From: Acidobacteriota bacterium
Lineage (GTDB): Bacteria > Acidobacteriota > Blastocatellia > RBC074
Direction of reading: 5' to 3'
Length of the DNA stretch: 64,000 nucleotides
Assembly: GCA_018269055.1 (NCBI GenBank)
Contig: JAFDVI010000013.1
Location: 2,621-66,620 of the forward strand
This document shows, one piece after another, positions 38,005-52,700 of the stretch. The notes under the pieces are model-generated. The model was given only the letters and a program-made list of their open reading frames with translations, had not been told where the DNA came from and did not search any database. A program made the position numbers and the translations under genes. Each line of letters starts with the position of its first letter. Position 1 is the first letter of the stretch.

Positions 38005-38955
38005 ATGAAAAGAAGTACTTTGACCTGGATCATCGTCGGTGGAGTTATCCTGCTCTGCGCTTTTTTCGTTGGGCTGTTCGCTTTGATGGCTGTGGCCACA
38101 GACGAAGATGGGTTTTTTGCAGGCGGCGGAGACCGGATTGCGGTTATTCCGGTCGAAGGCGTCATTGACGATGAAATGGCCAAAACGGTCAACCGGCATT
38201 TGAAACAATATGGGGATGATGCTCGTGTGAAGGCCATCATTTTACGAATTAATAGCCCTGGCGGAGGCGTTTCCGCGTCCCAGGAAATTCATCGCGAAGT
38301 CGTTCGGGTCAAAGAAGAGAAAAAGAAGAAAATTGTGGTTTCAATGGGCAGCGTTGCAGCTTCGGGCGGGTATTACATCTCCGCCCCTGCCGATCGGATC
38401 TTTGCCAACGAGGGGACCATTACCGGCAGCATCGGTGTGATTGCGGAATGGTTGAATTACAAGGATTTGGCCGAGTGGGCAAAGCTCAAGCCGGTAGTTT
38501 TCAAAAGCGGGGAGTTCAAAGATACGGGCTCGCCGACAAGAGATTTGACCGACAAGGATAAACAGTTTTTCGATGGATTGATCAAGGAACTTTACGGACA
38601 GTTTTTGGGAGCGGTCACCGCAGGCCGCAAAGGAAAAGGCGAGCCGAATAATCAGCTTGATGAAGAAAAGGTGAAGGCTTTGGCGGATGGTCGGGTTTTT
38701 AGCGGCACGGCTGCCGTCAAAAATGGTTTGGTGGATGAAATCGGAAATTACGAAGATGCCGTCAGAGCTACGGCCAAGATGGTAGGCATTAAAGGCGAAC
38801 CGAGTGTCGTGACGCCGCCGAAGCCCCGGGAAGGTTTCTCATTGCTTGATTTGCTGCTAGGGGCGACGAAAATCGGCGAACTGTCGCCCAGTCAATTGCC
38901 AAAACATTTGTCTGACATTGACACCTCAGTGAAGTTCAAATATCAATGGAAGTAG
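38005..38955 (+). CDS. sppA: Signal peptide peptidase SppA, 36K type
   Basis: LRINSPGG, VSMGSVAASGGYYIS, TITGSIGV, KSGEFKDTGSP, ADGRVFSG. Confidence 0.95.
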   Translation: MKRSTLTWIIVGGVILLCAFFVGLFALMAVATDEDGFFAGGGDRIAVIPVEGVIDDEMAKTVNRHLKQYGDDARVKAIILRINSPGGGVSASQEIHREVVRVKEEKKKKIVVSMGSVAASGGYYISAPADRIFANEGTITGSIGVIAEWLNYKDLAEWAKLKPVVFKSGEFKDTGSPTRDLTDKDKQFFDGLIKELYGQFLGAVTAGRKGKGEPNNQLDEEKVKALADGRVFSGTAAVKNGLVDEIGNYEDAVRATAKMVGIKGEPSVVTPPKPREGFSLLDLLLGATKIGELSPSQLPKHLSDIDTSVKFKYQWK

Positions 38956-39427: not shown

Positions 39428-39551
39428 ACCATCCGTATTGACCATTCTTTGTCGCATGGATGAATCCTGAAGATTGAAGCTCGCCGTTTGCCTTTTAGCT
39501 GCTCCGGTCAATGGGATTTCATTGTTGTCGTGTCCCCCTTCGGAGGTGCTT

Positions 39552-40637
39552 ATGAAGTGGTTCTCACGCCAGCCCTTTCGGTTTTGTCTAGGGTGGTTTC
39601 TGTCTTTCTTTGCCTTGGCCTGCTTTGTCCAAATCGGTTTTTCCCAACAATCAACTAATCCCAACAACCCGTCCCGCAACGCCATCGTCTCGCATTCCAT
39701 TCGCGGAAAGATTTTTATGCCATCTGGCAATTTGCCTGAACAGCGTTTACGCGTGGTGCTGGAACACAGCGCGGGCGGAATTGTGTCTGAAACCTTTTCT
39801 GATACCGCGGGCAACTTTGAATTCCGTGGATTGACCAATAACACCTATCGCGTCACCGTTCCCACGGACCACTACACCTACGAAACCGGCCAGGAAAGCG
39901 TCGAAGTCTTCGGCAATTATGCCCATACCGTCAGCGTTCAAATTTACCTCAAGGAAAAAGACAACAACCTGAATGTCATGACAAAAGACAAGCTGCTTTC
40001 ACCGGCTGACATTCAGGAAGTGCCGAAGAACGCTAAAAAAGCCTATGACCAGGGAGTAAAACTGGCGCGAGATAAACAGCCGGAAAAAGCCAGCGCAAAG
40101 TTTCAGGAGGCGTTACAGATTTTTCCCGAATACCTGAATGCTTTGAATAAACTCGGCGAACAGATGGCCATATTGAACAAACCCGATCTGGCCGAAGCCA
40201 ATTTCGAGCGAGCCATCGCCATCAATCCGAAATTCGCTTCGCCTTATATCAATTCCGGAATCGTGCTGGTCAGCCAGAAGCGTTACGACGAAGCAATCTC
40301 GACGCTGGAAACCGGCAACCGGCTGGATGACAGTTTCCCGATGGGCCATTTGAATTTGGGAATCGCCTTGATGTCCAAAACGCCTGCGGACTTTGATCAA
40401 GCAGAAAAGGAATTGATGCGAGTCCTTGATTCGAATAAGAAAGAGTTTGCCTATGTCCGAAAACTGCTCTTCAACCTCAACATTCGCCAGCGTAAATACG
40501 ACAAAGCCGTCGCGCAATTGGAAGCTTACTTGAAAGAATTCCCGGATGCCCCCGATTCACAAGAAGTCAAACTGACCTTGGAAAAAGTGAAAAAGGCGAT
40601 GGCTCAGCAGGCAGCGGCAAACCAAAAGTCACAATAG
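39552..40637 (+). CDS. Exported TPR protein with N-terminal carboxypeptidase-regulatory-like beta domain
   Basis: Signal peptide; SDTAGNFEFRGL...YRVTV; several TPRs; GGAGG RBS before ATG 39552. Confidence 0.82.
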   Translation: MKWFSRQPFRFCLGWFLSFFALACFVQIGFSQQSTNPNNPSRNAIVSHSIRGKIFMPSGNLPEQRLRVVLEHSAGGIVSETFSDTAGNFEFRGLTNNTYRVTVPTDHYTYETGQESVEVFGNYAHTVSVQIYLKEKDNNLNVMTKDKLLSPADIQEVPKNAKKAYDQGVKLARDKQPEKASAKFQEALQIFPEYLNALNKLGEQMAILNKPDLAEANFERAIAINPKFASPYINSGIVLVSQKRYDEAISTLETGNRLDDSFPMGHLNLGIALMSKTPADFDQAEKELMRVLDSNKKEFAYVRKLLFNLNIRQRKYDKAVAQLEAYLKEFPDAPDSQEVKLTLEKVKKAMAQQAAANQKSQ

Positions 40638-40858
40638 TTTCATATTTCATTTTGCCAAAGCGGTAAACGCGTTCGGGTGGTGAAGTCCATTACAGTTTGA
40701 AACCGATCTTTCGGTTACGACTCCTTACTTTAGGTGGACGAAATTTTCTGAATCATCTATCCTCTTTCCGTGAAAGCTAAAGCATAGGGACGCGGTTTAT
40801 TCCTGCCGAAATTCAAGACACATTTTCGAGTAACATTCAGTTTCGATATAAATTCGGA

Positions 40859-41467
40859 GTGGAACCTATTTCAATGATGGGCGAAACCGGTACGTTGAAT
40901 GCACTGAACGATCAGGAAGTTACACCGGAAAGATTGCAAGCCTTTCTCGAATGGCTGGCATCTGGCGCGAACATCCGTGAGGAAGTATATGAAGCTGCGC
41001 GCCGACGGCTGATCCTCTTTTTTGCAGGGCGCAAATGTCTTGACCCGGAATCGCTTGCCGACCGAACGCTCGACTTGGCCATGCGCAAACTGACCGAGAT
41101 TCCCGCTGAGGCCAAACCTCTGGCTTATCTGATTGGCATCGCCAAAAATATCTACCGCGACGAATTGCGTGCAGCGCATAAGGCCGAAGCCTTTCTGTCA
41201 ACTCGCTCTGCAACGCCTTCACAATCTGAACCCGAAACCGAGAGCCGGCATTCCTGCCTGGAAAAATGCTTGGCTGAATTGCCTGCAAACGAACGCGCCC
41301 TGGTGTTGGGGTATTACAGCGAATCCCGGCAAGCCAAAATAGATAAACGCAAACAACTTGCCGATCTGTACGGATTGACGCTGAACGCCTTGCGAAACCG
41401 TGTTTTTCGGCTCAACCAGCGGTTGGTGTTGTGCGTCACAGCGTGTTTGGAAAATTCTACGGCGTGA
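40859..41467 (+). CDS. ECF-type sigma-70 factor
   Basis: Region 2-like YEAARRRLILFF..DPESLADRT..AYLIGIAKN; region 4 CLEKCLAELP..ERALVL.YY..LADLYGLTLNALRNRVFRL. Confidence 0.85.
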   Translation: MEPISMMGETGTLNALNDQEVTPERLQAFLEWLASGANIREEVYEAARRRLILFFAGRKCLDPESLADRTLDLAMRKLTEIPAEAKPLAYLIGIAKNIYRDELRAAHKAEAFLSTRSATPSQSEPETESRHSCLEKCLAELPANERALVLGYYSESRQAKIDKRKQLADLYGLTLNALRNRVFRLNQRLVLCVTACLENSTA

Positions 41468-41520: not shown

Positions 41521-44500
41521 ATGTCTTTTATCACCGACACAGAACTCCGGTCGTATCTGTTGGGAAACCTGGCGGATGCGCCGCGCCAAGAAATTGAAGA
41601 TACGTTGCTCGTTAGCGACGAAGGCTCGTTGCGCTTGGAACTGGCCGAAGAAGATTTGATTGAAGATTTTCTGGACGGCCAACTCGACGCGGAACAAACC
41701 GCATTGTTCCAGAGCCAGTTTCTTTGCACTTCCGCACGCAAAGAAAAACTGGCGTATTTGCAAGCCATTCGTCAGATCGCCATTCGGCATCCGCAGCCGG
41801 AACAGGCCCCCGGCAACGTTGTCAGCTTTCCCGCGCCGGAAACGCGGCGGGGGATTTTCGTGGGTATGAATCGTTCAAGTTACTTAAAACTTGCGGCGGC
41901 AATTTTGCTTCTCAGCAGCGCGGGATTTTTGGTTTGGCGGTATGCGTTTCGTTCACCGGAAAGCGCTTCGCTCGTGGCCCTCAACCGAGCGTATGCGGGT
42001 GGACGAACGCTCGAAACGCGCATTGGCGGGTTCGATTACGCGCCTTATGCACCCACGCGCGGCGCGGACGAGGCGGACGCCAATGCGCGCATCCTGCGCG
42101 AACGCGCCGAACGCATTGTGCTGGATGCATATGCCGAACATCCGACTGCAGCCAATCGGCACGCGCTGGGAAAATACTATCTGGCAGATAAGCAGTTCGA
42201 TAAAGCCATTGAACAATTCAACGCTGCGCTCAAAGAAACTCCAACCGTGGCCGAATTGCACAACGATCTGGGCGCAGCTTTACTGGAAAAATCCAAATAC
42301 GAAAAGCGTAATGACCAGCCCGGCGACAGCTTGCAACACATGGCCGCAAGTCTGGAATCCATTGAACAAGCCCTGAAGCTGCAACCAAATTATCCAGCCG
42401 CAGTGTTCAATCGCGCGCTCTGTTTGCAGGAAATGTACCTGCCGCGCCAGGCCATTGAAGAGTGGAAAAAGTATCTACAACTCGACAACAACTCGAAATG
42501 GGCAGACGAAGCGCGCCGCCGATTGGCGGAACTCGAAAAAGCGCCGTCGAACATCTCAAAAAGTGATGATGAACTTTACCAGGAATACCTGAAAGACCCA
42601 GGGAACGAAGAACGCACCTTCGATCTGTTTTGCCAAGCCTATTCCACCACCGGCAACGGCATTACCGAACGGTTGATTGACGATTATCTGGCTGCTCAAA
42701 GCCACGGAGATGCCGCCGCAACCGACAAGCTGAATCTGCTGGAACAACTCGGCAAACTGATTTACCAGCGCACGACGGATTCTTACGTCCGCGATGTGGC
42801 GCGGTATTACCGGCAGTTACCTCCGCGTTTGTTACCCAAGCTCATCGAAGCTCGCCAGCATTTGAACCGGGGGCGCGACCTCAGATCAACTTCGCAATCC
42901 CAAGCGGCGTCGAATTACGAACAAGCTATCTCCCTGTTCCGCCAAGCCCAGGATTCGTGCGAAGTGAAAATGACTACCTGCTTGCTCGCCCGTTCGCATT
43001 TGCGGCAATCGAACCTGGATAAGAGCCAAGAATTGTTTGCTCCATTGGCGGGCGCGGGAAATCCCTATCTTTGGTTGCGGTGTGAAAGTTTGAATGGCCT
43101 GGGAGAACTGTTTAAGGTCAAAGCTCTGTCAGAGGAGGCGATTCGCGCAAATCAATCCGCACTTTCCATTGCTCAGCAAATTGGCAACACGAACCAGAGG
43201 GCCACAAACTTATATTCCCTGGCTGTAAAATACTTTGAGCTCGGCAATTTTGAGCGATCATTTGTTTATCAACAACAAGCCATCGAGACGGTTAGTCAAA
43301 ATGCAGCGAGCCATCAACAACACTGGGCAACCAATGCTCAAGCGGCGTTCCAATTATTTTCGAATGGGTTTTACGCAGCGGCTCTTGCCTATCAACAAGA
43401 AGCCTTAGCGATTGAGTTGACTACAAAACGCCAACTCCAGCTTTCACGCACTTTCAGCCACTTGGGCGTAATGCTAGGGAAAGTAATGCGCTTTGCTGAG
43501 GCAATCCCGGTGGCCCAAGAAGCAGTCAATATCGGGATTCGTCTGGGGAATGAAAGATTGGGAATTGAAATCCAGGCTTATAGCGGTTTGTTTCTTGCCG
43601 ATTTGCAACGTGAATCCGGGAACCAATTGGCAGCGTTCCAAAGCTATGAACGGGTGCTCAGCCTGAACAATCAACTGGGTATTCTCAGGTATGACTTTGA
43701 AGCTTACCGAGGTAAAGCCCTGGCAGAAATTGCTTTGGGATGGACCGAACAAGCAAAACGAGATTTAGCCACGGCACTGGCTATCTTTGAACAGAACCGC
43801 AATCAAATCGTGGCTGATAACGAACGTACGACCTATCTTGATAAGGAATACGAGACTTATGACGCCGCGATCAGTTTGGCTTATGCCGAAAATCCGCAAG
43901 CGGCTTTTGATTTGTCGGAACGAGGTCGTGCCCTTACTTTGCTTGAGGTCATGAAGGGCGGGCAGGGTGTAAATGCCAACAGAGCCGAAAAAGAATTCAT
44001 ATCCTTGAATCGCACCCAAAAGACCTCTCTACAGATGGTGCAGCAGCGAATCCCTCCGGGGACGAGTTTGCTGGAGTTCACCTGCTTGTCTGATCGTCTA
44101 ATTGTTTTTGGAGTTTCGGCAACCAATTTTACCCACAACCAGAATCTGATTTCGCTGTCCCAGCTTGAACAGAAAGTACAGGCTTTCAGGCGTGCAGTGT
44201 CGGACGCTTCCACAGGTGATGACCAGACCAAGATCCTCGCCGCTGAGCTATATCAAATTTTGATCGAACCGCTCGAACCCTTTTTATCCGACGAACAAAC
44301 TGTTTGTGTGGTTCCGGACAAAATCTTGCATTATTTGCCCTTTGCTGCGCTTTTTTCCGCTCGGCAGCAAAAATATCTGATTGAAACCCGCGCGCTTGTT
44401 ACGGCACCCAGCGCCTCAGTTTTCTTACTCTGTCTTGAACATGCTCGGCAACAAGGGATAGGCAAAAACGGCCAGGTGTTGGCGGTAGGAAATCCGCAGT

Positions 44501-45099
44501 TTGATCCGATTGCCTATCCGCAGTTGTCTGATCTATCAGCCGCAACCGATGAAGCAAATGAAGTTGCCGCCAAATACATCCACCGCAAAGTACTTACCGC
44601 TGAACAAGCCACTGAAGAGGCGGTAAAATCGGCAATCAAACGGGCCTCAATTATTCACTTGGCCACCCACGGCGTGATTGACGAGCGATCGTGGGCGAAT
44701 TCCAGATTGGTGTTGGCCAAGTCTTCTGCAGAAAACGGGGAAGACGGTGCGCTGCGCGCCTACGAAATTGCCCAAATGCGATTGCCAAATGCCCGGCTGG
44801 TTGTGCTATCGGCCTGCCAGTCGGGTGTGGAACGCGTTTATCGGGGCGAAGGCATGATCGGATTAGGCCGAGCCTTTCTCAGCGCGGGCGCGACCAGCGT
44901 CGTCGCCAGTTTTTGGGCCGTAGATTCAGACGTTTCGGCGGTTTTGATGACCGATTTTCACAAACAACTAAAGGCGTATTCCGTGTCTCAGGCGTTGAGG
45001 CACGCGCAATTGAACATGCTGCATAGCGCTAACGTTCAGCATCGTAATCCATATTACTGGGCGGCCTTCAGCGTTTTTGGCGGGGACGTGTTGCTGTAA
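41521..45099 (+). CDS. Anti-sigma-like N-terminus, TM, TPR array, CHAT (caspase-like) domain fusion
   Basis: LRSYLLG.L..EIED.L...EEDLIEDFLDG.L anti-sigma-like segment; TM LAAAILLLSSAGFLVW; TPRs; CHAT with VPDKILHYLPFAAL, IHLATHG, VLSACQSG, AFLSAGA..VVASFW.V.S, PYYWAAF. Confidence 0.92.
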   Translation: MSFITDTELRSYLLGNLADAPRQEIEDTLLVSDEGSLRLELAEEDLIEDFLDGQLDAEQTALFQSQFLCTSARKEKLAYLQAIRQIAIRHPQPEQAPGNVVSFPAPETRRGIFVGMNRSSYLKLAAAILLLSSAGFLVWRYAFRSPESASLVALNRAYAGGRTLETRIGGFDYAPYAPTRGADEADANARILRERAERIVLDAYAEHPTAANRHALGKYYLADKQFDKAIEQFNAALKETPTVAELHNDLGAALLEKSKYEKRNDQPGDSLQHMAASLESIEQALKLQPNYPAAVFNRALCLQEMYLPRQAIEEWKKYLQLDNNSKWADEARRRLAELEKAPSNISKSDDELYQEYLKDPGNEERTFDLFCQAYSTTGNGITERLIDDYLAAQSHGDAAATDKLNLLEQLGKLIYQRTTDSYVRDVARYYRQLPPRLLPKLIEARQHLNRGRDLRSTSQSQAASNYEQAISLFRQAQDSCEVKMTTCLLARSHLRQSNLDKSQELFAPLAGAGNPYLWLRCESLNGLGELFKVKALSEEAIRANQSALSIAQQIGNTNQRATNLYSLAVKYFELGNFERSFVYQQQAIETVSQNAASHQQHWATNAQAAFQLFSNGFYAAALAYQQEALAIELTTKRQLQLSRTFSHLGVMLGKVMRFAEAIPVAQEAVNIGIRLGNERLGIEIQAYSGLFLADLQRESGNQLAAFQSYERVLSLNNQLGILRYDFEAYRGKALAEIALGWTEQAKRDLATALAIFEQNRNQIVADNERTTYLDKEYETYDAAISLAYAENPQAAFDLSERGRALTLLEVMKGGQGVNANRAEKEFISLNRTQKTSLQMVQQRIPPGTSLLEFTCLSDRLIVFGVSATNFTHNQNLISLSQLEQKVQAFRRAVSDASTGDDQTKILAAELYQILIEPLEPFLSDEQTVCVVPDKILHYLPFAALFSARQQKYLIETRALVTAPSASVFLLCLEHARQQGIGKNGQVLAVGNPQFDPIAYPQLSDLSAATDEANEVAAKYIHRKVLTAEQATEEAVKSAIKRASIIHLATHGVIDERSWANSRLVLAKSSAENGEDGALRAYEIAQMRLPNARLVVLSACQSGVERVYRGEGMIGLGRAFLSAGATSVVASFWAVDSDVSAVLMTDFHKQLKAYSVSQALRHAQLNMLHSANVQHRNPYYWAAFSVFGGDVLL

Positions 45100-45116
45100 A
45101 ATATTTAGGAAGCAAA

Positions 45117-46118
45117 ATGAAGAACATCACAAACCAAATACCAAGTGAAAATGTCAAAGCTAAGGTTATCGTAGAAGGACTTTTTGTATTTTGTATCAAT
45201 GAAGAAGCAAAGCAGGCCGAATTTGGAGTGTACGATTTTGCCGACGATCACGAGTTTTCAATTAAAATATCAAAGAAACCTTTTGATATTACGGCAGACC
45301 CAATTAGAGAAATTATTGAGCTAACTTCCGATCCAATAATCGCTTATTTGAATAACCTTTCAATTGGGATAAAAGGGCGCGCATCAGATGTCCAGATTTA
45401 CCAAAACGAGAATCTCGAAGAAAGTTACTTTTTCATTAAAGCTAGGGAGGAAGAAATAGAAACCGAGGATGAAAATGGTAACTCAACCGGTTATGAGAAG
45501 GATTTTCGCTGGGTGCTTGATCTCGAAAGTAGTCGCTTCCACAATGAAAGACTCAATATAGTGCCTGGTATGTTAGAGCGAAAAATTATCATCAGCAACG
45601 GAGTCATTTCCACGCACGATACTGGGGGAAGGATTGTAAAGAATACATTCCCAAGCATAGCCAAGCAAAAACCTCCTCTGGATAGCTGCTACGTTAGCTA
45701 TCAGCTAGCAATTGATTTGATTGCTGATCCGCTAGAGGAGTCAATTGTAATTTCATATAGAGACCAAAATGCTACTCGGCGAAATGAGATATGTCTAGTT
45801 CCATCTGACGAGTATTATTATGAAATAAAACTGGATAATAACTGCAAGCGAGCTAAGCCCAACGCACGATTCAGCGATTTTCAGCATTATTACAATGTTT
45901 TTGCGAATGTTACCGCAGATAACAGATTCGATTTTGAAAAATTTGATGGTAGCGGTACAAAATCAATTCCTTGCGATCTTGTCTTTCTTGGGCAACACCA
46001 GAGTCTAGACGAAATCAAGGAGGGCCTTGTAGAGATGAGCGATCAGGCTATAACTGTTACTGAGGCAAACGATTCTTCTCCTACGTTACAGCTTGAATGT
46101 CAAAAAGAAGTTCATTGA
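45117..46118 (+). CDS. Hypothetical protein (333 aa), CHAT-associated, AT-rich
   Basis: Long ORF 17 nt after the CHAT stop with AGGAAG RBS; beta-rich; no signal peptide; no named family recognised. Confidence 0.8.
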   Translation: MKNITNQIPSENVKAKVIVEGLFVFCINEEAKQAEFGVYDFADDHEFSIKISKKPFDITADPIREIIELTSDPIIAYLNNLSIGIKGRASDVQIYQNENLEESYFFIKAREEEIETEDENGNSTGYEKDFRWVLDLESSRFHNERLNIVPGMLERKIIISNGVISTHDTGGRIVKNTFPSIAKQKPPLDSCYVSYQLAIDLIADPLEESIVISYRDQNATRRNEICLVPSDEYYYEIKLDNNCKRAKPNARFSDFQHYYNVFANVTADNRFDFEKFDGSGTKSIPCDLVFLGQHQSLDEIKEGLVEMSDQAITVTEANDSSPTLQLECQKEVH

Positions 46119-46211: not shown

Positions 46212-47612
46212 ATGGATAAAGTTTACTATCACAGACAAAACAAAGAAGAAGATTGTGGCCCAGCTTCGGTTCAGATTGTGTTAAATTACTTGGATGACAA
46301 TTTGCCAGCAGTTGGTAAATTTGACCAACAAAGCAAACTGAAAAGTAATGCGAATCTTTCATCTCATAACGCGCCTTGGGATTGGAATAGGTATAATAAC
46401 TGGAAATGGCAACCTGACGAAATTCGGGGGATGCTGGCTAAATATCTTAATTCATCGGCGAGTGCTGAAATATACCCTACAATCTCCGCTTCGGGTAAGG
46501 TGTATAGTGTTGATCCAATTACTGGTAAATCTGGTTATAAAAGTAAATTATCCGATCATTTGAATCAGTCAAAATATCCAATCGTTCCGATACATGGCAC
46601 TTTTCACTACAATGACAAGCTCGTTCCGCCGTCCATATACTCTGATATCGTTGAGAATCTTTTATTGAATAACGATGGAAAAATTGAAGACTCTAAATAT
46701 ATTGGGCACTGGATTGTGCTGACTGAAAATCAAAATGATAGCTTTATCGGCTTCGACCCTTGGCTGCCTAAATTGTTGGGTGCCCCTGAAATAAGTTCAA
46801 CTCATACAAAGAGCGTTGCTGGCAAAGGAGGAACGGATTGTGCGTGCTTTGAAGTTTATATCCACGTTAGCGGAGACAAAGATGCCTTAGGTCTAAATTT
46901 TCCAGCAGAGTCTCGTGTGGCGATCGTATGGAATGTGTCGAATTCGACAGGACGGCGCGTGCCTCCAACCAAGACAGGCAATCTCCCTCAATTTCCCCAA
47001 ACGGGTAAATGCATCAATAAGCCATTTGATGCCCAATCGCTTTTTGATCAGATGACGGCGTTTGGTCTTCGGAAACAACCCCCTTGCAACGTTTATTTGG
47101 AGAAGTCCACGATTGTTGCGCCTAATGTAAAGCCCAAGTTTAATCTTGGTATGCCAAGGCTTGTTCGTCGTTTGGATGCATTTTGTAATGATTACTACTT
47201 GGTGCCTTTTTTAAAATTGAATAGGCCTGGAGAAACTGCTCCTGGGGCAAGTACCATTTTGGCTCGTGTGGATGCTCCTTCTCTGCTTTACCTTGACGCA
47301 CTGTTCTATTCCGAAAATCCATTGCTCATTGATGAAACTACGATCCCGATGCCTCCGCCATTACCCGCCATTCTTACGCAAAAAGATATAATAAATCGAT
47401 ATGTCCCTGATCAGCTAATCAAGAAGGGAAAACGCCATTGGATAAAACCCTTTCAAGACCAGATCAAAGATATAAGTAATCCGCCAGAAATGGTTTGGCT
47501 GCCCTGCAAACAATCTATATCGCCGTTTTTCCCATTTTTTGTTATTACTGCTGGATCTGAAAAGTTTTTGGTGCGGCTCGATGGGGCAGTGTTTGAAAAG
47601 CTGAGTTATTGA
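46212..47612 (+). CDS. Papain-like C39-family cysteine peptidase with uncharacterised C-terminal domain
   Basis: Q-x5-CGPAS (HRQNKEEDCGPAS), GHWIVL, GFDPW give a Cys/His/Asp triad; GAGGG RBS; no signal peptide. Confidence 0.72.
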   Translation: MDKVYYHRQNKEEDCGPASVQIVLNYLDDNLPAVGKFDQQSKLKSNANLSSHNAPWDWNRYNNWKWQPDEIRGMLAKYLNSSASAEIYPTISASGKVYSVDPITGKSGYKSKLSDHLNQSKYPIVPIHGTFHYNDKLVPPSIYSDIVENLLLNNDGKIEDSKYIGHWIVLTENQNDSFIGFDPWLPKLLGAPEISSTHTKSVAGKGGTDCACFEVYIHVSGDKDALGLNFPAESRVAIVWNVSNSTGRRVPPTKTGNLPQFPQTGKCINKPFDAQSLFDQMTAFGLRKQPPCNVYLEKSTIVAPNVKPKFNLGMPRLVRRLDAFCNDYYLVPFLKLNRPGETAPGASTILARVDAPSLLYLDALFYSENPLLIDETTIPMPPPLPAILTQKDIINRYVPDQLIKKGKRHWIKPFQDQIKDISNPPEMVWLPCKQSISPFFPFFVITAGSEKFLVRLDGAVFEKLSY

Positions 47613-48285
47613 TTCGCTCAGCAGTCTCATCGTCCGATATGCGGAAGATCTTCGGCTTTCTACTCGTGTTGTCATTCCATTGCGGGCACTCCACAATGAT
47701 TTCGAACATAATTCGCCGTAATTTTCTCACTCGATTTCCAACACTCTTTCTTCCTGTTCTTTCCTCATCTCATTTTTTCTCAAAGTTGTTGCGTCGGTTG
47801 CCGTGATGTTTTGTCTATTGCGGACATTCCTGAATGAGCAGGAACCATCAGTGAAAATCACTGACCCAGTGTCTTGTCTGATGCAAATGAGCGGAGACTG
47901 AAGTCTGAGTGCAGGGCAATGGTTTCTGCCTCTCTGAAATCAAGATTTGCGTCCCAGCCAGATCGTTCCGTAGTAGCAAACCGCTTGTCGCAACGATTCA
48001 CCGCTGTTTCATCGGCTCTCCAAATGATTCGCCTCAGCCGTTTTTTCAATTCTCCTACAAAAAACCGTCCTTGTCCGACGTGATGTTTTGCGCATCTTGT
48101 ACATTCATCAGTGAAGGCAAATGGTGGAAATAGCCGGTGGCAAACGGAGGCGACAAAAGTTGGTTCTGATTTTCGGGTCTTGTCGCGAATGCGGGTGACG
48201 ATGGTTTGTTCGGCATCCGCCAGAGGCAGTGGAATGCCATCGGATCAAGAAAACTTCAGTCACTTTAACCTCGGAGGAAAAGAAC

Positions 48286-49554
48286 ATGCGCAAAAATGCA
48301 ATCAACTACTTTTTCGGCAAACTGCTTCCTTGCATCGCTATATTGATGTTGTTACAGGCAATTCAAGCGAAAGCAGCAGATCCGGGACAATCCTGTGATT
48401 GTTTCGATGGAACGTTTGCCACTGTCGATTGGACTGATTTGATGATCAAAGATGCAAATGGATCGGGGCAGTATCAAGTATTACAGATGTCAGCAGGAGG
48501 GAATCTAAATGAATATCGTAGAACCAGGCACGATTACGGTTATGGGGAGATTTATGTCGCTCATAAAAATACAAAGTGCACTTATGATCCCAAAATTCAA
48601 GGGGCTATTGACTCTGTAAGCTATAGATTCGATTTATTACAATTTGATCCACCGGTAGGGCAGGACGTGGCCTACCGGTTACTCGTATTTCAGGATCAGA
48701 CTTACTATGGTGGGCCATTAGAGGTCATCGGTAACCAATCCGTGTGGACAAATAAACCATCGGCGATTGTTCCTCTAAAACCGGGAGACTTTATAAAAAT
48801 AGCAGGGCCAAGCAGTACGCCATTAACACCTAATTTTACTGCTGCTGGCAAGCCCATCACATTTGGTTACCTTAGTGGTAACAACAACCCTAATCCGAGC
48901 ACGAAGTCTACTCGTATTAGCGGCCTTGATAATTGGTGCGTAAACATCGTGTCAGTGCCTCCGCCAACCGACCCTTGCTGTCCACCTTGGGATGTGAACC
49001 GTTTGAAGTCAATGATGTTCTACAAAGGCCAAGGCTCGATTTCGGCCCCCTATGTGCTTCAGTTCAAGCCGACATCTACCTTTATCAATCAGATGCAGGC
49101 ATACATCAACTACCTGAATTTCGATCCGACCATCAAACGGATCGTTATTTACTGGGACTTACGAGATCAAGGTACAGGCACCAATCCAAATCCAAATCTA
49201 AATCCCACAAAGATATTTGATCCTACCGCCGGTACCGGTCAAGGTCAGGGATACGTGAAATGGGATGCTCCGAACACCAATGGTTACGGCGTTTTGGACC
49301 CGAATTACTTTCTTCTGGAACAACCCAATGCCGTTGAATACCCAATGCAAGTGGGTACCTGGTATGTGATTCATACATACATATACCTGAACGATAAGAT
49401 CAGGTACTGGCCGGAGAAATGTGATACCAACGACATTTACGTCAGGATTCAGGTTCAGCCACAAATGCCAAGAAACTCAGGCAGCCAAACCATTCTTGAA
49501 TTCAGTGATGGTAAGAAAGTAATTCAGCGTGTTCCTATTCAGGTGCAAAACTAA
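48286..49554 (+). CDS. Secreted two-domain protein of unknown function
   Basis: GGAGG RBS, signal peptide ending AQA/AKA; domain 1 (..YDPKIQGAIDSV..PITFGY) and domain 2 (DPCCPPW..QMQAYINYL..VGTWY..C..DIYVRIQ). Confidence 0.8.
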   Translation: MRKNAINYFFGKLLPCIAILMLLQAIQAKAADPGQSCDCFDGTFATVDWTDLMIKDANGSGQYQVLQMSAGGNLNEYRRTRHDYGYGEIYVAHKNTKCTYDPKIQGAIDSVSYRFDLLQFDPPVGQDVAYRLLVFQDQTYYGGPLEVIGNQSVWTNKPSAIVPLKPGDFIKIAGPSSTPLTPNFTAAGKPITFGYLSGNNNPNPSTKSTRISGLDNWCVNIVSVPPPTDPCCPPWDVNRLKSMMFYKGQGSISAPYVLQFKPTSTFINQMQAYINYLNFDPTIKRIVIYWDLRDQGTGTNPNPNLNPTKIFDPTAGTGQGQGYVKWDAPNTNGYGVLDPNYFLLEQPNAVEYPMQVGTWYVIHTYIYLNDKIRYWPEKCDTNDIYVRIQVQPQMPRNSGSQTILEFSDGKKVIQRVPIQVQN

Positions 49555-49773: not shown

Positions 49774-52700
49774 ATGAATACACATATAACGCCCACACGA
49801 ATTGTTTTCCTGAACCGAAACTGGGAACGGTTTCGATTGGTTCTTGCCAGCAGTTTTGTAATGCTGGCCGCGGTCTTAACGTGGCAGGTCTCGGCGCGAT
49901 TTTCCGCTTCGGCGAAATCGAATTCGCTGGCCGCGAACTCTGCGACCTCGATTCCCGCTGCGCCTGCGGCAGCGATGCAAGGCGGCTGCAACAACTGTTG
50001 CGGTTCATGGAGCCAGAAATCCAGCACGGGGCCATCTGCCCGCGACATTCACGCAATGGCTTATGCGCAAGCTTGCAATCGCGTCGTGCTGTTTGGTGGC
50101 CGCGCAGCGGGTGGTTTTCCGCCTGCCAACGTCACGGATGATACTTGGGAATGGAATGGCAACACCATGACCTGGACGCAATTCTTCCCGGCGACACGGC
50201 CAGGGCCACGCGGTCAGCACGCGATGGTATATGACGCGGCGCGCAATGAAATCGTGCTCTTCGGCGGATTCAATCAAAACTTTGTTGGGCTGAATGACAC
50301 TTGGGTGTATAGCTGCGCCACGCATACCTGGACGCAGAAATTTCCGGCCACGTCGCCTTCGATCCGGCACGGGCACGCGATGGCCTACGATCCGAACAAA
50401 CAGCTTGTCGTGATGTATGGCGGCGGCAGCAACAAACAAGACACCTGGACGTGGGACGGAACGAATTGGGTGGAGATCATCGGCGCAAACCAGCCGGGCA
50501 TTCGCCACGAACATGCCATGGCCTTTGACGGAACGCGCATCATTTTGTTTGGCGGGTCGAAAAACGCAGGCTATGCGGACAACGACACCTGGGATTTGAC
50601 GCTGACTTCGCCGAGCGCGGGAACCTGGACGATGATCGCTCCCAATGGTAGCGGCCCAAATAAACGCCAGCGTCATGCGATGGCGTATGACCCCGGTTGT
50701 CGCAAAGTGATTTTATTCGGCGGGTGGAGCGACATTGCAACTTACGCCGACGACACCTGGGAATGGCGGCGAGACACATTGTCGTGGTGTCAAACTTCAG
50801 TGCCGACACCGCCGTCGCCAGCGCGCCAATTTTCAGCAATGGCGTATGACGGAAAAGGCGTGATTATGAATGGCGGACTGAATAGCTCACTCGCGCAAAT
50901 TCAGGACACCTGGCGATTTGCCTGCAACCGCGCGTACACCTATCGCGCCGGATTGATGGACGATTTCGCCTTGCCCACCGATCCGACCTCGCCAACCGCG
51001 GCATTTATGGCAAACGTTGACGCGTTTTATAGCACTCCGCCGAAGATGGATTTTGACGAACCGACGACGAATAAATTCCTGCTTCATTCGTTTACCGGAT
51101 TGCCGACCAACATCGTCCGAGCAGAATTGGAAGTGCGGGCGCAGCCGAACGGCGGAGCTTCCAACGATTCAATCCATTTGGATTTCCCGCCGTTTAACGC
51201 TCCTTCATTTACGTGGGGGAAAAACTTTTTCGCGCTGCATCCCGGCGGAACGTGGGATCCGGGGCAGGGCGCGTATACCTTCACCCTGGATTTGTGCAAT
51301 TTGCCCGCTGGCGGCGCAGGGCAGCCGACAAACCTGCTTGGCCTGCTGAATGCGAATCAGTCACTCCACATCATGATTCAGGATGACACCAGCGTGGATT
51401 ACATCAAGTTGCGCGTGTGGTCGTGCCCACCGCGCAGGTATCACGGCGGTTTGCCCGTGGAATCGCTGGGGCAAGCACAACTGAGCGAGGACGCGAACGG
51501 CAATCTGTTGATCGGGGACATCGGCGTCAGCGGCAACGACGGAGCGACCTTCCAGGTCGGCGAAACGAGAGGCGCTTCGATCAAGATGGTGGATACGCTT
51601 TCGTCGCTGCCCAACGGCAGTTATGTCGAAGCGCGCGGGATCGGACGAGTTGGCGGCACGCCCAACAGTCCAGCTAGCAGCATGCGCATAGCGATGACAA
51701 ACACTGGTGCTGAACTGACGCCGAATTTCAGTGCGCTTGGCGCTACGACGTTTCACGTTATCCTGTACAACGACGGGAACACCGTGTTCAGCCAGGGAGG
51801 GTTGAGCGGCAATGCCGTTAGTGTGCCCGCCGCTGCCGTTGCGCCTCTTCTGCAATTCGGCGGGTCAGGAAACATCGTCGGTATGGAAGACATGTCCGGT
51901 CTCGGTATCATCATTACCGAAGACGTCCTCCTGCGTGTGAATGGGCAGGACATTGGTACCGGAGACACGCTGGTCTTTGCGCCCGAAAATCCCACGCAGT
52001 CCTTCGATCTGCTGACGAACTTCCAATTCGGCGGGGCGGGCGTTTCGACGCTGCGCGCGGTGTTGGGAAATATAACCTGTTGCGGTTTCTCCGGTTCCGC
52101 CTCTAATACGTCGCAGTTCCAGGTGGGTGGCAACGCACAACTGGAACCATTTGTCGGTGGCGTCAGTGTGACGGGCATCGGTTCCAGCGGGCAGGATGGC
52201 GTAACAATAAACCTGCGCAAGTCGCAGAGCTTCGGCATCACTTTTGATCCCCTTGATCCAATGTCCATTGCGCCGGTCGGAGCTTCGCTGCAAATCAGCA
52301 CGTCGCACATTCTCAATGTGCTGCCGCCGCCTCCGCCGCGCAACGACAACCTCTCGCTGACCGCAACCAAGCCCATCATTCCGCCGATCTTTCCGGAGAC
52401 GTATAGAGTCGCGGCGAATTTTTCGGAATTGGGAGCGACTTCACTGCATGTAACGGCGTTCAATGGCGCGACGCAAGTTGCTGAGATGACGAACTTTACT
52501 GGGGAAGTCTTGGTCTCAAAACGGCCATTAAAATTTAGTTTCATCGATTTGGCCACGTTGGGATATCAACTGGATTTCCCCAGCGGCGCGCAGGTCAAAT
52601 TTGGACCTTGCCCGCCTGCTCCGTGTGACCAGGGATTCACCATCACATCGCTGCGCGTCCAGCCGCAGACCACAAACGTGACGGTTTCATACTTTACGAA

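What the first reader, a model, noticed from the sequence alone, without database searches (positions are those of the whole stretch)
45117..46118. Uncharacterised 333-aa protein tightly coupled to the CHAT gene: candidate substrate, ligand or effector
Seen: starts 17 nt after the CHAT stop, has its own RBS, is AT-rich, has no signal peptide, and contains motif-like blocks (VEGLFVFCIN, DFRWVLDLE..FH, LDNNC, SDFQHYY, PCDLVFL). From recollection, not verified, similar proteins sit just downstream of CHAT genes in other acidobacterial genomes. Inference: a dedicated partner of the protease, either cleaved by it or binding its TPRs. The lack of a signal peptide conflicts with a periplasmic CHAT, which is itself informative.
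Basis: partly seen in the sequence, partly recalled or inferred. Interest (0 to 1): 0.65.

Follow-up and report, generated by a model that had tools for sequence, protein, structure and literature searches.

The report
Unannotated protein behind CHAT anti-sigma gene
This gene encodes a member of a previously undescribed protein family that nearly always sits just behind a membrane-spanning sigma-factor inhibitor carrying a caspase-like (CHAT) sensor domain, usually with a cytoplasmic protease gene next to it, so it is probably the still-unknown working part of an envelope-triggered signalling cassette in Acidobacteria.

Summary
ORF 45117-46118 is a real 333-aa gene, 17 nt after the CHAT stop, with an AGGAAG ribosome-binding site, GC 0.39 and no signal peptide.

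It belongs to an unannotated family of about 190 clusters at 50% identity. It has no Pfam, NCBIfam, PADLOC or PDB sequence hit. A confident AlphaFold model (pLDDT 89) has no Foldseek match.

The CHAT linkage is supported: 47 of 59 assessable homologs lie directly downstream of a ~1200-aa TPR-CHAT gene preceded by an ECF sigma gene. That CHAT protein is a single-pass transmembrane anti-sigma factor of the DdvA type, so its protease domain is periplasmic. 45-46 of the 47 CHAT-linked copies lack a signal peptide, so direct cleavage by CHAT is unlikely.

The next gene is usually a cytoplasmic peptidase: C39-like here, S8/S53 elsewhere. In this clade the protein co-varies with that peptidase (r = 0.92) and not with CHAT (r = 0.23). 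His45 and Cys286 are invariant, and cytoplasmic copies add Cys26/34 and Cys243.

Best reading (about 0.35): a sigma-induced cytoplasmic His/Cys protein paired with, and probably processed by, the neighbouring peptidase. Function is unproven.

The parts
40735..40765 (+). Promoter-like motif TGGACGAAA-N-ATCATCTATCCT, about 123 nt upstream of the sigma ORF. It is the likely operon promoter. A second conserved leader block, GGGACGCGGTTTATTCC, lies at 40787-40803.
   Evidence: Conserved in the upstream regions of six related loci. It occurs once in the window and once per related locus, always 123-141 nt upstream of sigma. Promoter function is inferred.
40859..41467 (+). ECF-type sigma factor (202 aa), first gene of the cassette
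   Evidence: NCBIfam ECF models match, with TIGR02989 at E=2.9e-12, but below the curated cut-offs. It is 58-79% identical in related loci and always lies directly upstream of the TPR-CHAT gene.
41521..45099 (+). [quoted passage not shown]
   Evidence: Pfam CHAT 241 bits plus TPRs. One TM helix at about aa 120-143, with K/R bias towards the N-terminal side. The catalytic His1050 and Cys1099 are invariant in 28 homologs. The best PDB sequence match is 8rot_B (DdvA), E=1e-10 (PMC11506125).
45107..45112 (+). Ribosome-binding site AGGAAG of the target gene
   Evidence: Read directly from the sequence.
45117..46118 (+). The finding: a 333-aa cytoplasmic, beta-rich protein of an unannotated family. 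Gly21, His45 and Cys286 are invariant; the DFRW-x2-DLE motif and Cys26/Cys243 are conserved. Residues about 300-333 are a clade-specific disordered tail.
   Evidence: No Pfam, NCBIfam, PADLOC or PDB hit. No Foldseek match.
46212..47612 (+). Cytoplasmic C39-like papain-fold cysteine peptidase (466 aa) with an unknown C-terminal domain of about 270 aa. It is the probable functional partner of the target.
   Evidence: Weak Pfam Peptidase_C39_2 match, 20.8 bits against a cut-off of 24. Cys15-Gly16, His166-Trp167 and Asp182-Pro183 are invariant in 11 homologs. No TM segment or signal peptide. Its divergence tracks that of the target, r=0.92. It has the same low GC as the target.

Best explanation
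ORF 45117-46118 encodes a soluble cytoplasmic, mostly beta-strand protein of a previously unannotated family.

It is the third gene of a conserved operon with four parts:
1. An ECF sigma factor.
2. A single-pass anti-sigma factor whose periplasmic part is a TPR-CHAT caspase-like module (DdvS/DdvA type).
3. This protein.
4. A cytoplasmic peptidase, C39-like in this window and S8/S53 subtilase in other clades.

Proposed mechanism:
- A periplasmic cue acts on the TPR-CHAT sensor and the sigma factor is released, as proposed for DdvA.
- The auto-regulated operon is then transcribed, so the protein and its peptidase are made together in the cytoplasm.
- There the protein is the peptidase's specific partner. 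Most likely it is a latent His45/Cys286 (plus Cys26/Cys243) effector or zymogen that the peptidase processes. That would make it a transcriptionally gated 'protease-effector' module.

Shown: the gene is real, family membership, synteny, lack of export signal, conserved residues, and co-variation with the peptidase.

Inferred: co-transcription from the sigma promoter, physical pairing with the peptidase, cleavage, and any effector activity.
For: Real, conserved family:
- 190 representative clusters match the profile.
- The AlphaFold2 model has pLDDT 89.1 and pTM 0.85.

Cassette:
- The order sigma, TPR-CHAT, target holds in 47 of 59 assessable unique homologs, down to about 20% identity.
- Gaps are 17 nt here and -4 to 75 nt in most other loci.
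- The clade-conserved promoter-like motif occurs only upstream of sigma.

Compartment:
- The CHAT protein has one TM helix and an N-in charge bias, and resembles DdvA (PMC11506125).
- 45-46 of the 47 CHAT-linked copies lack a signal peptide.
- The partner peptidases lack TM segments and signal peptides. The S8 partners start with a CPxC...CxxC zinc ribbon.

Peptidase link:
- The next gene is a peptidase of unrelated classes in most CHAT-linked loci. It is C39-like in 11 loci and S8/S53 in 16 or more. L093/L094 carry both.
- Two unique secreted copies sit beside periplasmic S41 peptidases.
- In the window's clade, target and peptidase identities co-vary with r=0.92 (35-72% and 27-74%), while CHAT stays at 58-75% with r=0.23.
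- Both genes share a low GC of 0.39-0.43 in every locus.
- DNA homology to L008 ends at the CHAT stop codon, although the flanking SppA is 91% identical.

Active or metal site:
- His45 and Cys286 are 100% conserved; Asp129 and Asp135 are 93-94% conserved.
- Cytoplasmic members add Cys26 or Cys34 plus Cys243.

Precedent:
- Effector families linked alternately to trypsin-, caspase- and S8-type proteases, with co-phylogeny, are activated by cleavage (PMC12642450).
- DdvS/DdvA switches on defence genes (PMC11506125).
Against: - There is no experimental or expression data. No RNA runs hold this sequence.
- No cleavage site can be named.
- About 40% of CHAT-linked loci have no peptidase as the next gene. 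MacB/FtsX, AAA+, ARPP-1 or opposite-strand genes appear instead. The protein is therefore more constant in the cassette than the peptidase.
- In the S8-type clade the protein co-diverges with CHAT as well (r=0.90) and there is no GC dip. The decoupling from CHAT is specific to this clade.
- The window flanks are housekeeping genes (rpsA, ispH, ppk, phoD, sppA, glpD), not a defence island. No PADLOC model matches.
- Secreted paralogs show that the fold also works outside the cytoplasm. This fits a general enzyme or binding function as well as it fits an effector.
- I had no coordinates of the model, so the spatial clustering of His45, Cys286, Cys26 and Cys243 is unverified.
Confidence: 0.35

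Rival explanations
1. Stand-alone cytoplasmic Cys/His enzyme or metal/redox-binding protein. It belongs to the sigma regulon but is not a protease substrate. The protein and the neighbouring peptidase would act in parallel, or on a third substrate, for example in stress-induced protein or peptide turnover or in redox sensing.
For: - His45 and Cys286 are invariant, and Asp129, Asp135 and Asn241 are near-invariant, across cytoplasmic and exported members.
- Most cytoplasmic members show a Cys3-His pattern: C.HCC in 31, CCHCC in 25 and .CHCC in 18. All 17 signal-peptide members lack Cys243. This is typical of a thiolate metal site that is dispensed with in the oxidising periplasm.
- Some copies carry Tat signals, which often mark cofactor-containing proteins.
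- Many CHAT-linked loci lack an adjacent peptidase.
Against: - There is no similarity to any known enzyme or metalloprotein fold or family.
- The repeated, class-independent adjacency to peptidases in the same compartment, and the r=0.92 co-variation with the C39-like peptidase, are not explained.
Confidence: 0.2
2. Cytoplasmic signalling accessory of the sigma/anti-sigma pair. The protein would be an adaptor or modulator that, with the neighbouring peptidase, removes the cytoplasmic anti-sigma fragment after intramembrane proteolysis, or otherwise tunes sigma release. The analogy is SspB/ClpXP acting on RseA.
For: - The protein is the most constant gene after sigma and anti-sigma, more constant than the peptidase.
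- In the S8-type clade its divergence tracks that of the TPR-CHAT anti-sigma, r=0.90.
- Start and stop codons overlap or nearly abut in several loci, with gaps of -4 to 20 nt.
- The DdvA model requires degradation of the released cytoplasmic domain by cytosolic proteases (PMC11506125).
Against: - In the window's clade the anti-sigma N-terminal domain and the sigma factor are highly conserved (58-79%), while the protein and peptidase fall to 35% and 27-32% and look like an exchanged cassette. A specific binder of that domain should not diverge like this.
- Exported and tandem paralogs exist without any sigma or anti-sigma nearby.
Confidence: 0.15
3. One reading: a direct substrate, pseudo-substrate or ligand of the TPR-CHAT protease, securin- or Csx30-like, met in the same compartment.
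For: - The gene is tightly and anciently adjacent to the CHAT gene in 47 of 59 cases.
- The CHAT catalytic dyad is invariant, so the protease is probably active.
- Family members with Tat signals lie next to CHAT genes in L072, L055 and L058. Tandem no-signal/Tat pairs could be co-exported.
- Divergence is correlated with CHAT in the S8-type clade.
- DdvA authors expect a protein signal or partner in the periplasm (PMC11506125).
Against: - 45-46 of the 47 CHAT-linked copies, including this one, have no export signal, and there is no room for an upstream start.
- The N-terminus is folded into the domain.
- The TPR-CHAT part is beyond the single TM helix.
- There is no co-variation with CHAT in this clade, r=0.23.
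Confidence: 0.1
4. Dedicated inhibitor or chaperone that keeps the neighbouring cytoplasmic peptidase inactive until needed, similar to the staphostatin/staphopain logic.
For: - The protein is adjacent to a peptidase in the same compartment and co-varies with it.
- It is a compact beta-rich protein.
Against: - The same family sits next to mechanistically unrelated peptidases: cysteine C39-like, serine S8/S53 and S41. This is unusual for a specific inhibitor.
- Invariant His/Cys/Asp residues suggest an active or metal site rather than a binding loop.
- Many family members have no peptidase neighbour.
Confidence: 0.08

Closest known systems
DdvS/DdvA of Myxococcus xanthus (ECF sigma plus transmembrane anti-sigma with periplasmic TPR-CHAT; PDB 8ROT; PMC11506125)
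   Same: The two upstream genes have the same architecture.
- An ECF sigma gene is followed by a protein of about 1000-1200 aa with an N-terminal cytoplasmic sigma-binding region, one TM helix and a periplasmic TPR-CHAT with an intact His-Cys dyad.
- DdvA is the best solved-structure sequence match of the window's CHAT protein, E=1e-10.
   Different: - DdvA has a CHCC zinc anti-sigma domain. The proteins here have a conserved but Cys/His-free N-terminal domain.
- Similarity to DdvA is limited to the CHAT domain.
- DdvS/DdvA controls a CBASS/CRISPR island and has no reported homolog of the 333-aa protein.
- The cassette here is in Acidobacteriota-type genomes, outside the Myxococcota/Comamonas range reported in that paper.
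Protease-effector defence modules (bacterial gasdermin, Pepco/Trypco, EACC1, MBL-fold and alpha/beta-hydrolase zymogens; PMC12642450)
   Same: - A protein of unknown function is encoded next to a protease.
- Different clades pair with different protease classes, including S8 subtilases.
- Effector and protease co-evolve.
- The protein is similar in size and beta-rich, like gasdermin.
   Different: - There is no sequence or fold similarity to any of these effectors.
- The peptidases here are not fused to recognisable sensor domains. Sensing would instead be done by a separate sigma/anti-sigma pair at the transcriptional level.
- There is no defence-island context.
- Cleavage and toxicity are untested.
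Type III-E Craspase (Cas7-11, Csx29 TPR-CHAT, Csx30/Csx31, RpoE sigma; PMC10028731)
   Same: A TPR-CHAT protease, an ECF-type sigma factor and an uncharacterised neighbouring protein occur in one locus. In Craspase the neighbour (Csx30) is the CHAT substrate that controls the sigma factor.
   Different: - There are no cas genes and no CRISPR array.
- The Csx29 model scores 34 bits against a cut-off of 300.
- The CHAT here is membrane-anchored and periplasmic.
- The protein has no similarity to Csx30 or Csx31.
ECF54-type genomic context (ECF sigma with carboxypeptidase-regulatory, subtilase and CHAT proteins; PMC8999054, PMC7826278)
   Same: The neighbour combination is the same. The window has a CarboxypepD_reg-TPR gene at 39474-40637. 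Related loci have subtilases. A CHAT protein sits next to an ECF sigma.
   Different: - ECF54 was defined in Actinobacteria and is described as lacking an anti-sigma factor.
- Membership of this sigma factor in ECF54 was not tested.
- No conserved unannotated 300-aa protein is mentioned in the passages I read.
Peptidase family C39 / C39-like (for the downstream partner gene)
   Same: The N-terminal Q..CG(P)A motif and the HW(I/V)V..DP motif give a Cys/His/Asp triad that is invariant in 11 homologs.
   Different: - The Pfam score is below the gathering threshold.
- There is no ABC-transporter fusion.
- No double-glycine leader is evident in the target.
- The extra C-terminal domain of about 270 aa is unknown.

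Membership tests
DdvS/DdvA-type ECF sigma / TPR-CHAT transmembrane anti-sigma cassette (context of the finding) | ECF sigma gene immediately upstream of the anti-sigma gene | tested here: inconclusive
   The 202-aa ORF matches several ECF sigma models (TIGR02989 E=2.9e-12; TIGR02937 27.5 bits), but all are below curated cut-offs. The gene and its position are conserved in all related loci.
DdvS/DdvA-type ECF sigma / TPR-CHAT transmembrane anti-sigma cassette (context of the finding) | Single-pass membrane protein with a cytoplasmic N-terminal domain and a large C-terminal periplasmic domain | tested here: met
   There is one hydrophobic helix at about aa 110-150 in 26 full-length homologs. K/R averages 3.4 before and 1.9 after the helix. 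Topology is inferred, not measured.
DdvS/DdvA-type ECF sigma / TPR-CHAT transmembrane anti-sigma cassette (context of the finding) | Zinc-binding (CHCC) anti-sigma domain | tested here: not met
   The N-terminal 100 aa are conserved (YLLGxL...IE..L..D....EDELID.Y) but lack the Cys/His ligands. No zf-HC2 hit was found.
DdvS/DdvA-type ECF sigma / TPR-CHAT transmembrane anti-sigma cassette (context of the finding) | TPR-CHAT domain with a His-Cys catalytic dyad | tested here: met
   Pfam CHAT scores 241 bits, with TPRs. His1050 and Cys1099 are invariant in 28 homologs. The best PDB match is 8rot_B, DdvA.
DdvS/DdvA-type ECF sigma / TPR-CHAT transmembrane anti-sigma cassette (context of the finding) | Controls an adjacent anti-phage defence island | tested here: not met
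   There are no PADLOC hits for the neighbouring proteins. No CRISPR array is present. The flanks are housekeeping genes. The regulon itself is not testable here.
Protease-effector modules (gasdermin, Pepco, EACC1, MBL, alpha/beta-hydrolase) | Effector gene encoded next to a protease gene | tested here: met
   The next gene is C39-like in 11 loci and S8/S53 in 16 or more loci. L093/L094 carry both.
Protease-effector modules (gasdermin, Pepco, EACC1, MBL, alpha/beta-hydrolase) | Co-evolution of effector and protease, with different protease classes in different clades | tested here: met
   r=0.92 with the C39-like peptidase (6 loci) and r=0.73 with S8 (8 loci). The pairs are not independent and the samples are small.
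Protease-effector modules (gasdermin, Pepco, EACC1, MBL, alpha/beta-hydrolase) | Site-specific cleavage of the effector that unleashes a toxic activity | not testable with these tools
   This needs co-expression or biochemistry. No conserved cleavage motif could be named.
Protease-effector modules (gasdermin, Pepco, EACC1, MBL, alpha/beta-hydrolase) | Homology to a described effector family | tested here: not met
   There are no Pfam, NCBIfam or PADLOC hits for 82 family members. Foldseek against the PDB, which I expect holds the solved bacterial gasdermin structures (from my own knowledge, not checked here), gave a best E of 0.05 at TM 0.09.
Type III-E Craspase (Csx29/Csx30/RpoE) | Cas7-11 and CRISPR array in the locus; CHAT protein meets the Csx29 model; neighbour homologous to Csx30 or Csx31 | tested here: not met
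   The Csx29 model scores 33.8 bits against a cut-off of 300. There is no array. The target has no NCBIfam hit.
Peptidase C39 (downstream partner 46212-47612) | Papain-fold Cys/His/Asp triad in C39 order; Pfam gathering score | tested here: inconclusive
   The triad is invariant in 11 homologs, but Pfam Peptidase_C39_2 scores 20.8 bits against a cut-off of 24.

The most novel reading that the evidence does not exclude
The family is a new-fold, His/Cys-dependent cytoplasmic death or stress effector. A dedicated cytoplasmic peptidase (C39-like or zinc-ribbon S8) licenses it, and the pair is switched on transcriptionally by an envelope-sensing ECF sigma / TPR-CHAT anti-sigma pair. This would be a two-tier immune or stress module, sensing in the periplasm and executing by proteolysis in the cytoplasm, widespread in Acidobacteriota. 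Its effector-peptidase cassette would be exchanged between lineages behind a conserved sensor.
Probability: 0.2. Interest if true: 0.8.

Novelty: new variant of a known kind. Interest (0 to 1): 0.6.

Why it matters
- DdvA is, by its authors' account, the only characterised anti-sigma factor with a TPR-CHAT domain and was thought to be nearly confined to Myxococcota. Here the same architecture appears in many soil and sludge Acidobacteriota-type contigs, as a tighter four-gene cassette.
- The third gene of that cassette has no annotation, no detectable fold relative, and invariant His and Cys residues.
- If the protein is the output or a co-factor of this pathway, it gives a handle on what TPR-CHAT anti-sigma systems actually do.
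- It may also add a new effector family to the growing 'protease-licensed effector' logic.
- Even the conservative result is useful. It defines a new protein family of about 190 clusters, with diagnostic motifs, two compartment variants and a clear genomic signature that annotation pipelines currently miss.

Tried and rejected
- AlphaFold2 on the 3-sequence alignment was useless, pLDDT 34. It was replaced by the 143-sequence alignment.
- The word-indexed homolog search was insensitive for this family. It gave 3 hits with the single sequence and 4 with the profile. The exhaustive profile search was needed.
- The 143-sequence alignment was too diverse for the locus scan. The 82-sequence alignment worked.
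- Pfam, NCBIfam and PADLOC on 82 members gave only Tat-signal hits.
- The PDB sequence profile search gave nothing.
- Foldseek against PDB and BFVD gave only meaningless Ig/Fab-type matches at TM about 0.1. Gasdermin, aerolysin-like, chymotrypsin-like, sortase or cupredoxin folds are therefore not supported.
- No family member was found in viral contigs, plasmids or phage genomes.
- No RNA-seq run holds the sequence.
- hhalign found no internal duplication between the N- and C-terminal halves.
- P0092, a 961-aa hit with 8 matched stretches, is an fn3-repeat protein and a spurious match to the 'YEIxLxN' strand.
- I searched for a second copy of the sigma-promoter-like motif in front of the target or peptidase. 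None exists.
- No repeats or tRNA suggest a mobile element around the low-GC target-peptidase segment.
- The idea that the S8 partner is a membrane-anchored periplasmic site-1 protease was rejected. It has no TM helix or signal peptide.
- The idea that the decoupling from CHAT is general was rejected. It does not hold in the S8-type clade.
Full report
**1. Observation**

The ORF at 45117-46118 (+) is present as described, with an ATG start and 333 codons.

- The upstream 1192-aa ORF (41521-45099) ends with TAA at 45097-45099. This leaves 17 nt that contain AGGAAG at 45107-45112.
- GC is 0.391 (GC3 0.359), against 0.524 for the window and 0.52-0.53 for the two upstream genes.
- There is no hydrophobic N-terminal segment.
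- No upstream in-frame start exists.

**2. The protein and its family**

Known-family searches gave nothing.

- Single-sequence searches against Pfam, NCBIfam and PADLOC found nothing.
- A word-indexed search of 5.8 billion proteins found two relatives: P0002 at 72% identity and P0003 at 43%.
- An exhaustive profile search of 1.84 billion cluster representatives found 190 proteins at E<=1e-3 and 35 at E<=1e-10. Nearly all are 250-345 aa.
- None of 82 members has a Pfam, NCBIfam or PADLOC domain apart from Tat signals.
- The family profile matches no PDB sequence.

Structure prediction succeeded once the alignment was deep enough.

- With a 143-sequence alignment, AlphaFold2 gives a confident model: pLDDT 89.1, pTM 0.85.
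- The model is mostly long beta strands, with an ordered coil segment that carries the DFRW-x2-DLE motif. Residues about 300-333 form a disordered tail specific to this window.
- Foldseek finds nothing in the PDB or BFVD. The best E is 0.05 at TM about 0.1.

Conservation points to a functional site.

- Gly21, His45 and Cys286 are invariant.
- Pro285, Asp129, Asp135, Gly162, Trp132, Phe255, Tyr259, Asn241 and Glu137 are 89-98% conserved.
- Most members without a signal peptide also carry Cys243 plus Cys26 and/or Cys34. The window has Cys26, Cys243 and Cys286.
- All 17 members with signal peptides lack Cys243.

This pattern suggests a catalytic or metal/redox site built around His45 and Cys286. 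I had no model coordinates, so their proximity is an inference.

**3. The neighbour is a DdvA-like anti-sigma factor**

- The 202-aa ORF at 40859-41467 matches ECF sigma models, below curated cut-offs.
- The CHAT protein has a conserved N-terminal domain of about 100 aa, one TM helix at about 120-143, TPRs and a C-terminal CHAT domain.
- In 26-28 homologs the single helix, a K/R excess on its N-terminal side (3.4 against 1.9) and the catalytic His1050/Cys1099 are all conserved.
- Its best match among solved structures is 8rot_B. That is the cryo-EM structure of M. xanthus DdvA, the only characterised anti-sigma with a periplasmic TPR-CHAT (PMC11506125).
- The N-terminal domain here lacks DdvA's CHCC zinc ligands.
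- A clade-conserved promoter-like motif, (G/A)GACGAA-N15-TCTATYCT, lies 123-141 nt upstream of sigma. It occurs once per locus.

Together with the 17-nt gap, this argues that sigma, anti-sigma and the target are one operon. This is an inference, because no transcript data exist.

**4. Gene neighbourhood across 94 loci**

I collected 94 loci from genome and metagenome scans and exact-protein look-ups. I built profiles for the four genes and sorted the unique family ORFs of at least 200 aa by context and export signal.

| Context of the family ORF | Number | Export signal |
|---|---|---|
| Directly downstream of a TPR-CHAT gene, same strand | 47 of 59 assessable | 45-46 without signal peptide, 1 with a Tat signal (L072) |
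| Assessable, not linked to CHAT | 12 | 11 with Sec or Tat signals |
| Tandem second copies | 12 | 11 with signals |

- Where enough DNA is present, the TPR-CHAT gene is itself preceded by a sigma gene.
- L055 and L058 have the order CHAT, no-signal copy, Tat copy.

The family therefore has a cytoplasmic, CHAT-cassette form, to which the window's gene belongs, and an exported form. The linkage holds at 20-25% identity to the query, so it is not just recent common ancestry.

The genome loci are Acidobacteriota or Blastocatellales MAGs. Three MAGs labelled 'uncultured Heliomicrobium' carry the same cassette. The window sequence itself occurs in activated-sludge metagenomes.

**5. The gene after the target**

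The next gene is usually a cytoplasmic peptidase, of unrelated classes.

- In the window's clade it is a 416-488-aa protein. Its N-terminus is C39-like, and Cys15, His166 and Asp182 are invariant in 11 homologs. It has no TM segment or signal peptide.
- In more distant clades it is usually an S8 subtilase of about 700 aa. This begins with a CPxC...CxxC zinc ribbon, has an intact SGTS serine motif and has no TM segment or signal peptide.
- One locus has an S53 pro-kumamolisin.
- L093/L094 carry both a C39-like and an S8 gene.
- Other loci have MacB/FtsX, AAA+, ARPP-1 or opposite-strand genes.
- Two unique exported copies sit back-to-back with periplasmic S41 peptidases.

Non-homologous peptidases in the matching compartment point to a protease-related function. 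The peptidase is less constant than the target, however.

**6. Who co-evolves with whom**

Among six loci of the window's clade:

- The sigma factor stays at 58-79% identity and the CHAT protein at 58-75%.
- The target ranges over 35-72% and the C39-like peptidase over 27-74%.
- Target and peptidase identities correlate with r=0.92. Target and CHAT correlate with r=0.23.

L008 is the clearest example.

- It shares upstream synteny with the window, with SppA 91% identical.
- DNA homology of 75-79% runs up to exactly the CHAT stop codon, and nothing is alignable beyond it.
- The target is 35% identical and the peptidase 32%.

By contrast L001, whose CHAT is equally distant (74-75% identity), has a 72% target and a 72-74% peptidase.

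Both the target and the peptidase have GC 0.39-0.43 in every locus of the clade.

This looks like exchange or rapid joint diversification of a target-peptidase cassette behind a conserved sensor.

In eight S8-type loci the three genes diverge together, with r(target,CHAT)=0.90 and r(target,S8)=0.73, and there is no GC dip. The decoupling is therefore clade-specific. The samples are small and the pairs are not independent.

**7. Interpretation**

It argues against the protein being a direct CHAT substrate or TPR ligand (confidence about 0.1).

The most economical model is as follows.

- The protein is a cytoplasmic product of the sigma-controlled operon.
- It works with the adjacent cytoplasmic peptidase.
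- Most likely it is a latent His/Cys effector or zymogen that the peptidase processes.

Two lines of published work are consistent with this. Protease-effector modules show alternate protease classes and effector-protease co-phylogeny (PMC12642450). DdvS/DdvA switches on defence genes (PMC11506125). I give this model about 0.35.

Rivals:

| Rival | Confidence |
|---|---|
| Stand-alone Cys/His enzyme or metal/redox protein of the regulon | 0.2 |
| Cytoplasmic accessory that helps remove the anti-sigma fragment | 0.15 |
| Peptidase inhibitor or chaperone | 0.08 |

Against a defence role:

- The window's flanks are housekeeping genes.
- No PADLOC model matches.
- There is no CRISPR array, tRNA or mobile-element repeat nearby.
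- The family is absent from the phage, viral and plasmid collections.

**8. Comparison with known systems, and novelty**

- The sigma/anti-sigma pair works like DdvS/DdvA but fails one defining feature, the zinc anti-sigma domain. It also lies outside the reported taxonomic range.
- The locus is not a Craspase locus.
- The neighbour set of CarboxypepD_reg, subtilase and CHAT recalls what is described for ECF54 (PMC8999054). Membership in ECF54 was not tested.
- The 333-aa protein belongs to no described family or fold.

I class the finding as a new variant of a known kind of system: an ECF sigma / TPR-CHAT anti-sigma cassette, with features of protease-effector modules. Its distinctive component is a new protein family. 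Interest is 0.6.

Noticed in passing
window 46212-47612: The downstream 466-aa gene is a cytoplasmic C39-like cysteine peptidase. Its Cys15/His166/Asp182 triad is invariant, and it has a C-terminal domain of about 270 aa with no known family. It is as divergent (27-74% identity) and as low in GC as the target.
   Followed up: partly
window 48229-49554: A 441-aa ORF with a clear signal peptide has no Pfam or NCBIfam hit and no homolog in any of the related loci. It has low GC (0.46-0.48) and lies between the cassette and the Kelch gene. A 36-nt imperfect direct repeat lies just upstream, at 47802-47837 and 48079-48114.
   Followed up: partly
window 49774-54759: A giant Kelch/He_PIG repeat protein (1661 aa) is syntenic downstream of the cassette in L002, L003 and L006, at 42% identity. 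It may belong to the same regulon.
   Followed up: partly
window 39474-40637 and 38005-38955: A CarboxypepD_reg + TPR protein and an SppA (S49) peptidase lie directly upstream of the sigma gene. Both are syntenic in L008, at 69% and 91% identity. L008 has an extra 895-aa gene inserted between them and sigma.
   Followed up: partly
window 40787-40803: A second conserved block, GGGACGCGGTTTATTCC, lies in the sigma leader, downstream of the promoter-like motif. It contains GGGA...TCC complementarity, so it could be a second promoter element or a leader structure.
   Followed up: no
L006 9974-10902: In this Acidobacteriota MAG the target homolog is split into two overlapping ORFs of 138 and 171 aa. 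This is a frameshift, so either a pseudogene or an assembly error.
   Followed up: no
L049, L054, L055, L058 (tandem pairs); L072: Tandem pairs consist of a copy without a signal peptide followed by a copy with a twin-arginine signal. This suggests hetero-dimer 'hitch-hiker' export by Tat. L072 has a Tat-signal copy directly after the CHAT gene.
   Followed up: partly
L062 65-1543, L065 2650-4035: Sec-exported family members are divergently adjacent to periplasmic S41 (C-terminal processing) peptidases. In L084 and L065 they also lie near VanY and peptidoglycan-binding proteins.
   Followed up: partly
L093 and L094 (4683-10061 in L093): These cassettes carry both peptidase types in series: sigma, TPR-CHAT, target, C39-like, then S8 with a fervidolysin-type N-propeptide.
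   Followed up: no
L005, L007, L008 (genome contigs records): MAGs labelled 'uncultured Heliomicrobium sp.' carry this Acidobacteriota-type cassette. L008 has 91% SppA identity to the window. The taxonomic label of these records looks doubtful.
   Followed up: no
L009-L094, many soil metagenome contigs: Transmembrane TPR-CHAT anti-sigma proteins with adjacent ECF sigma genes are common in these soil and sludge contigs. The DdvA paper reported such proteins almost only in Myxococcota, but it searched for the zinc-binding type.
   Followed up: partly
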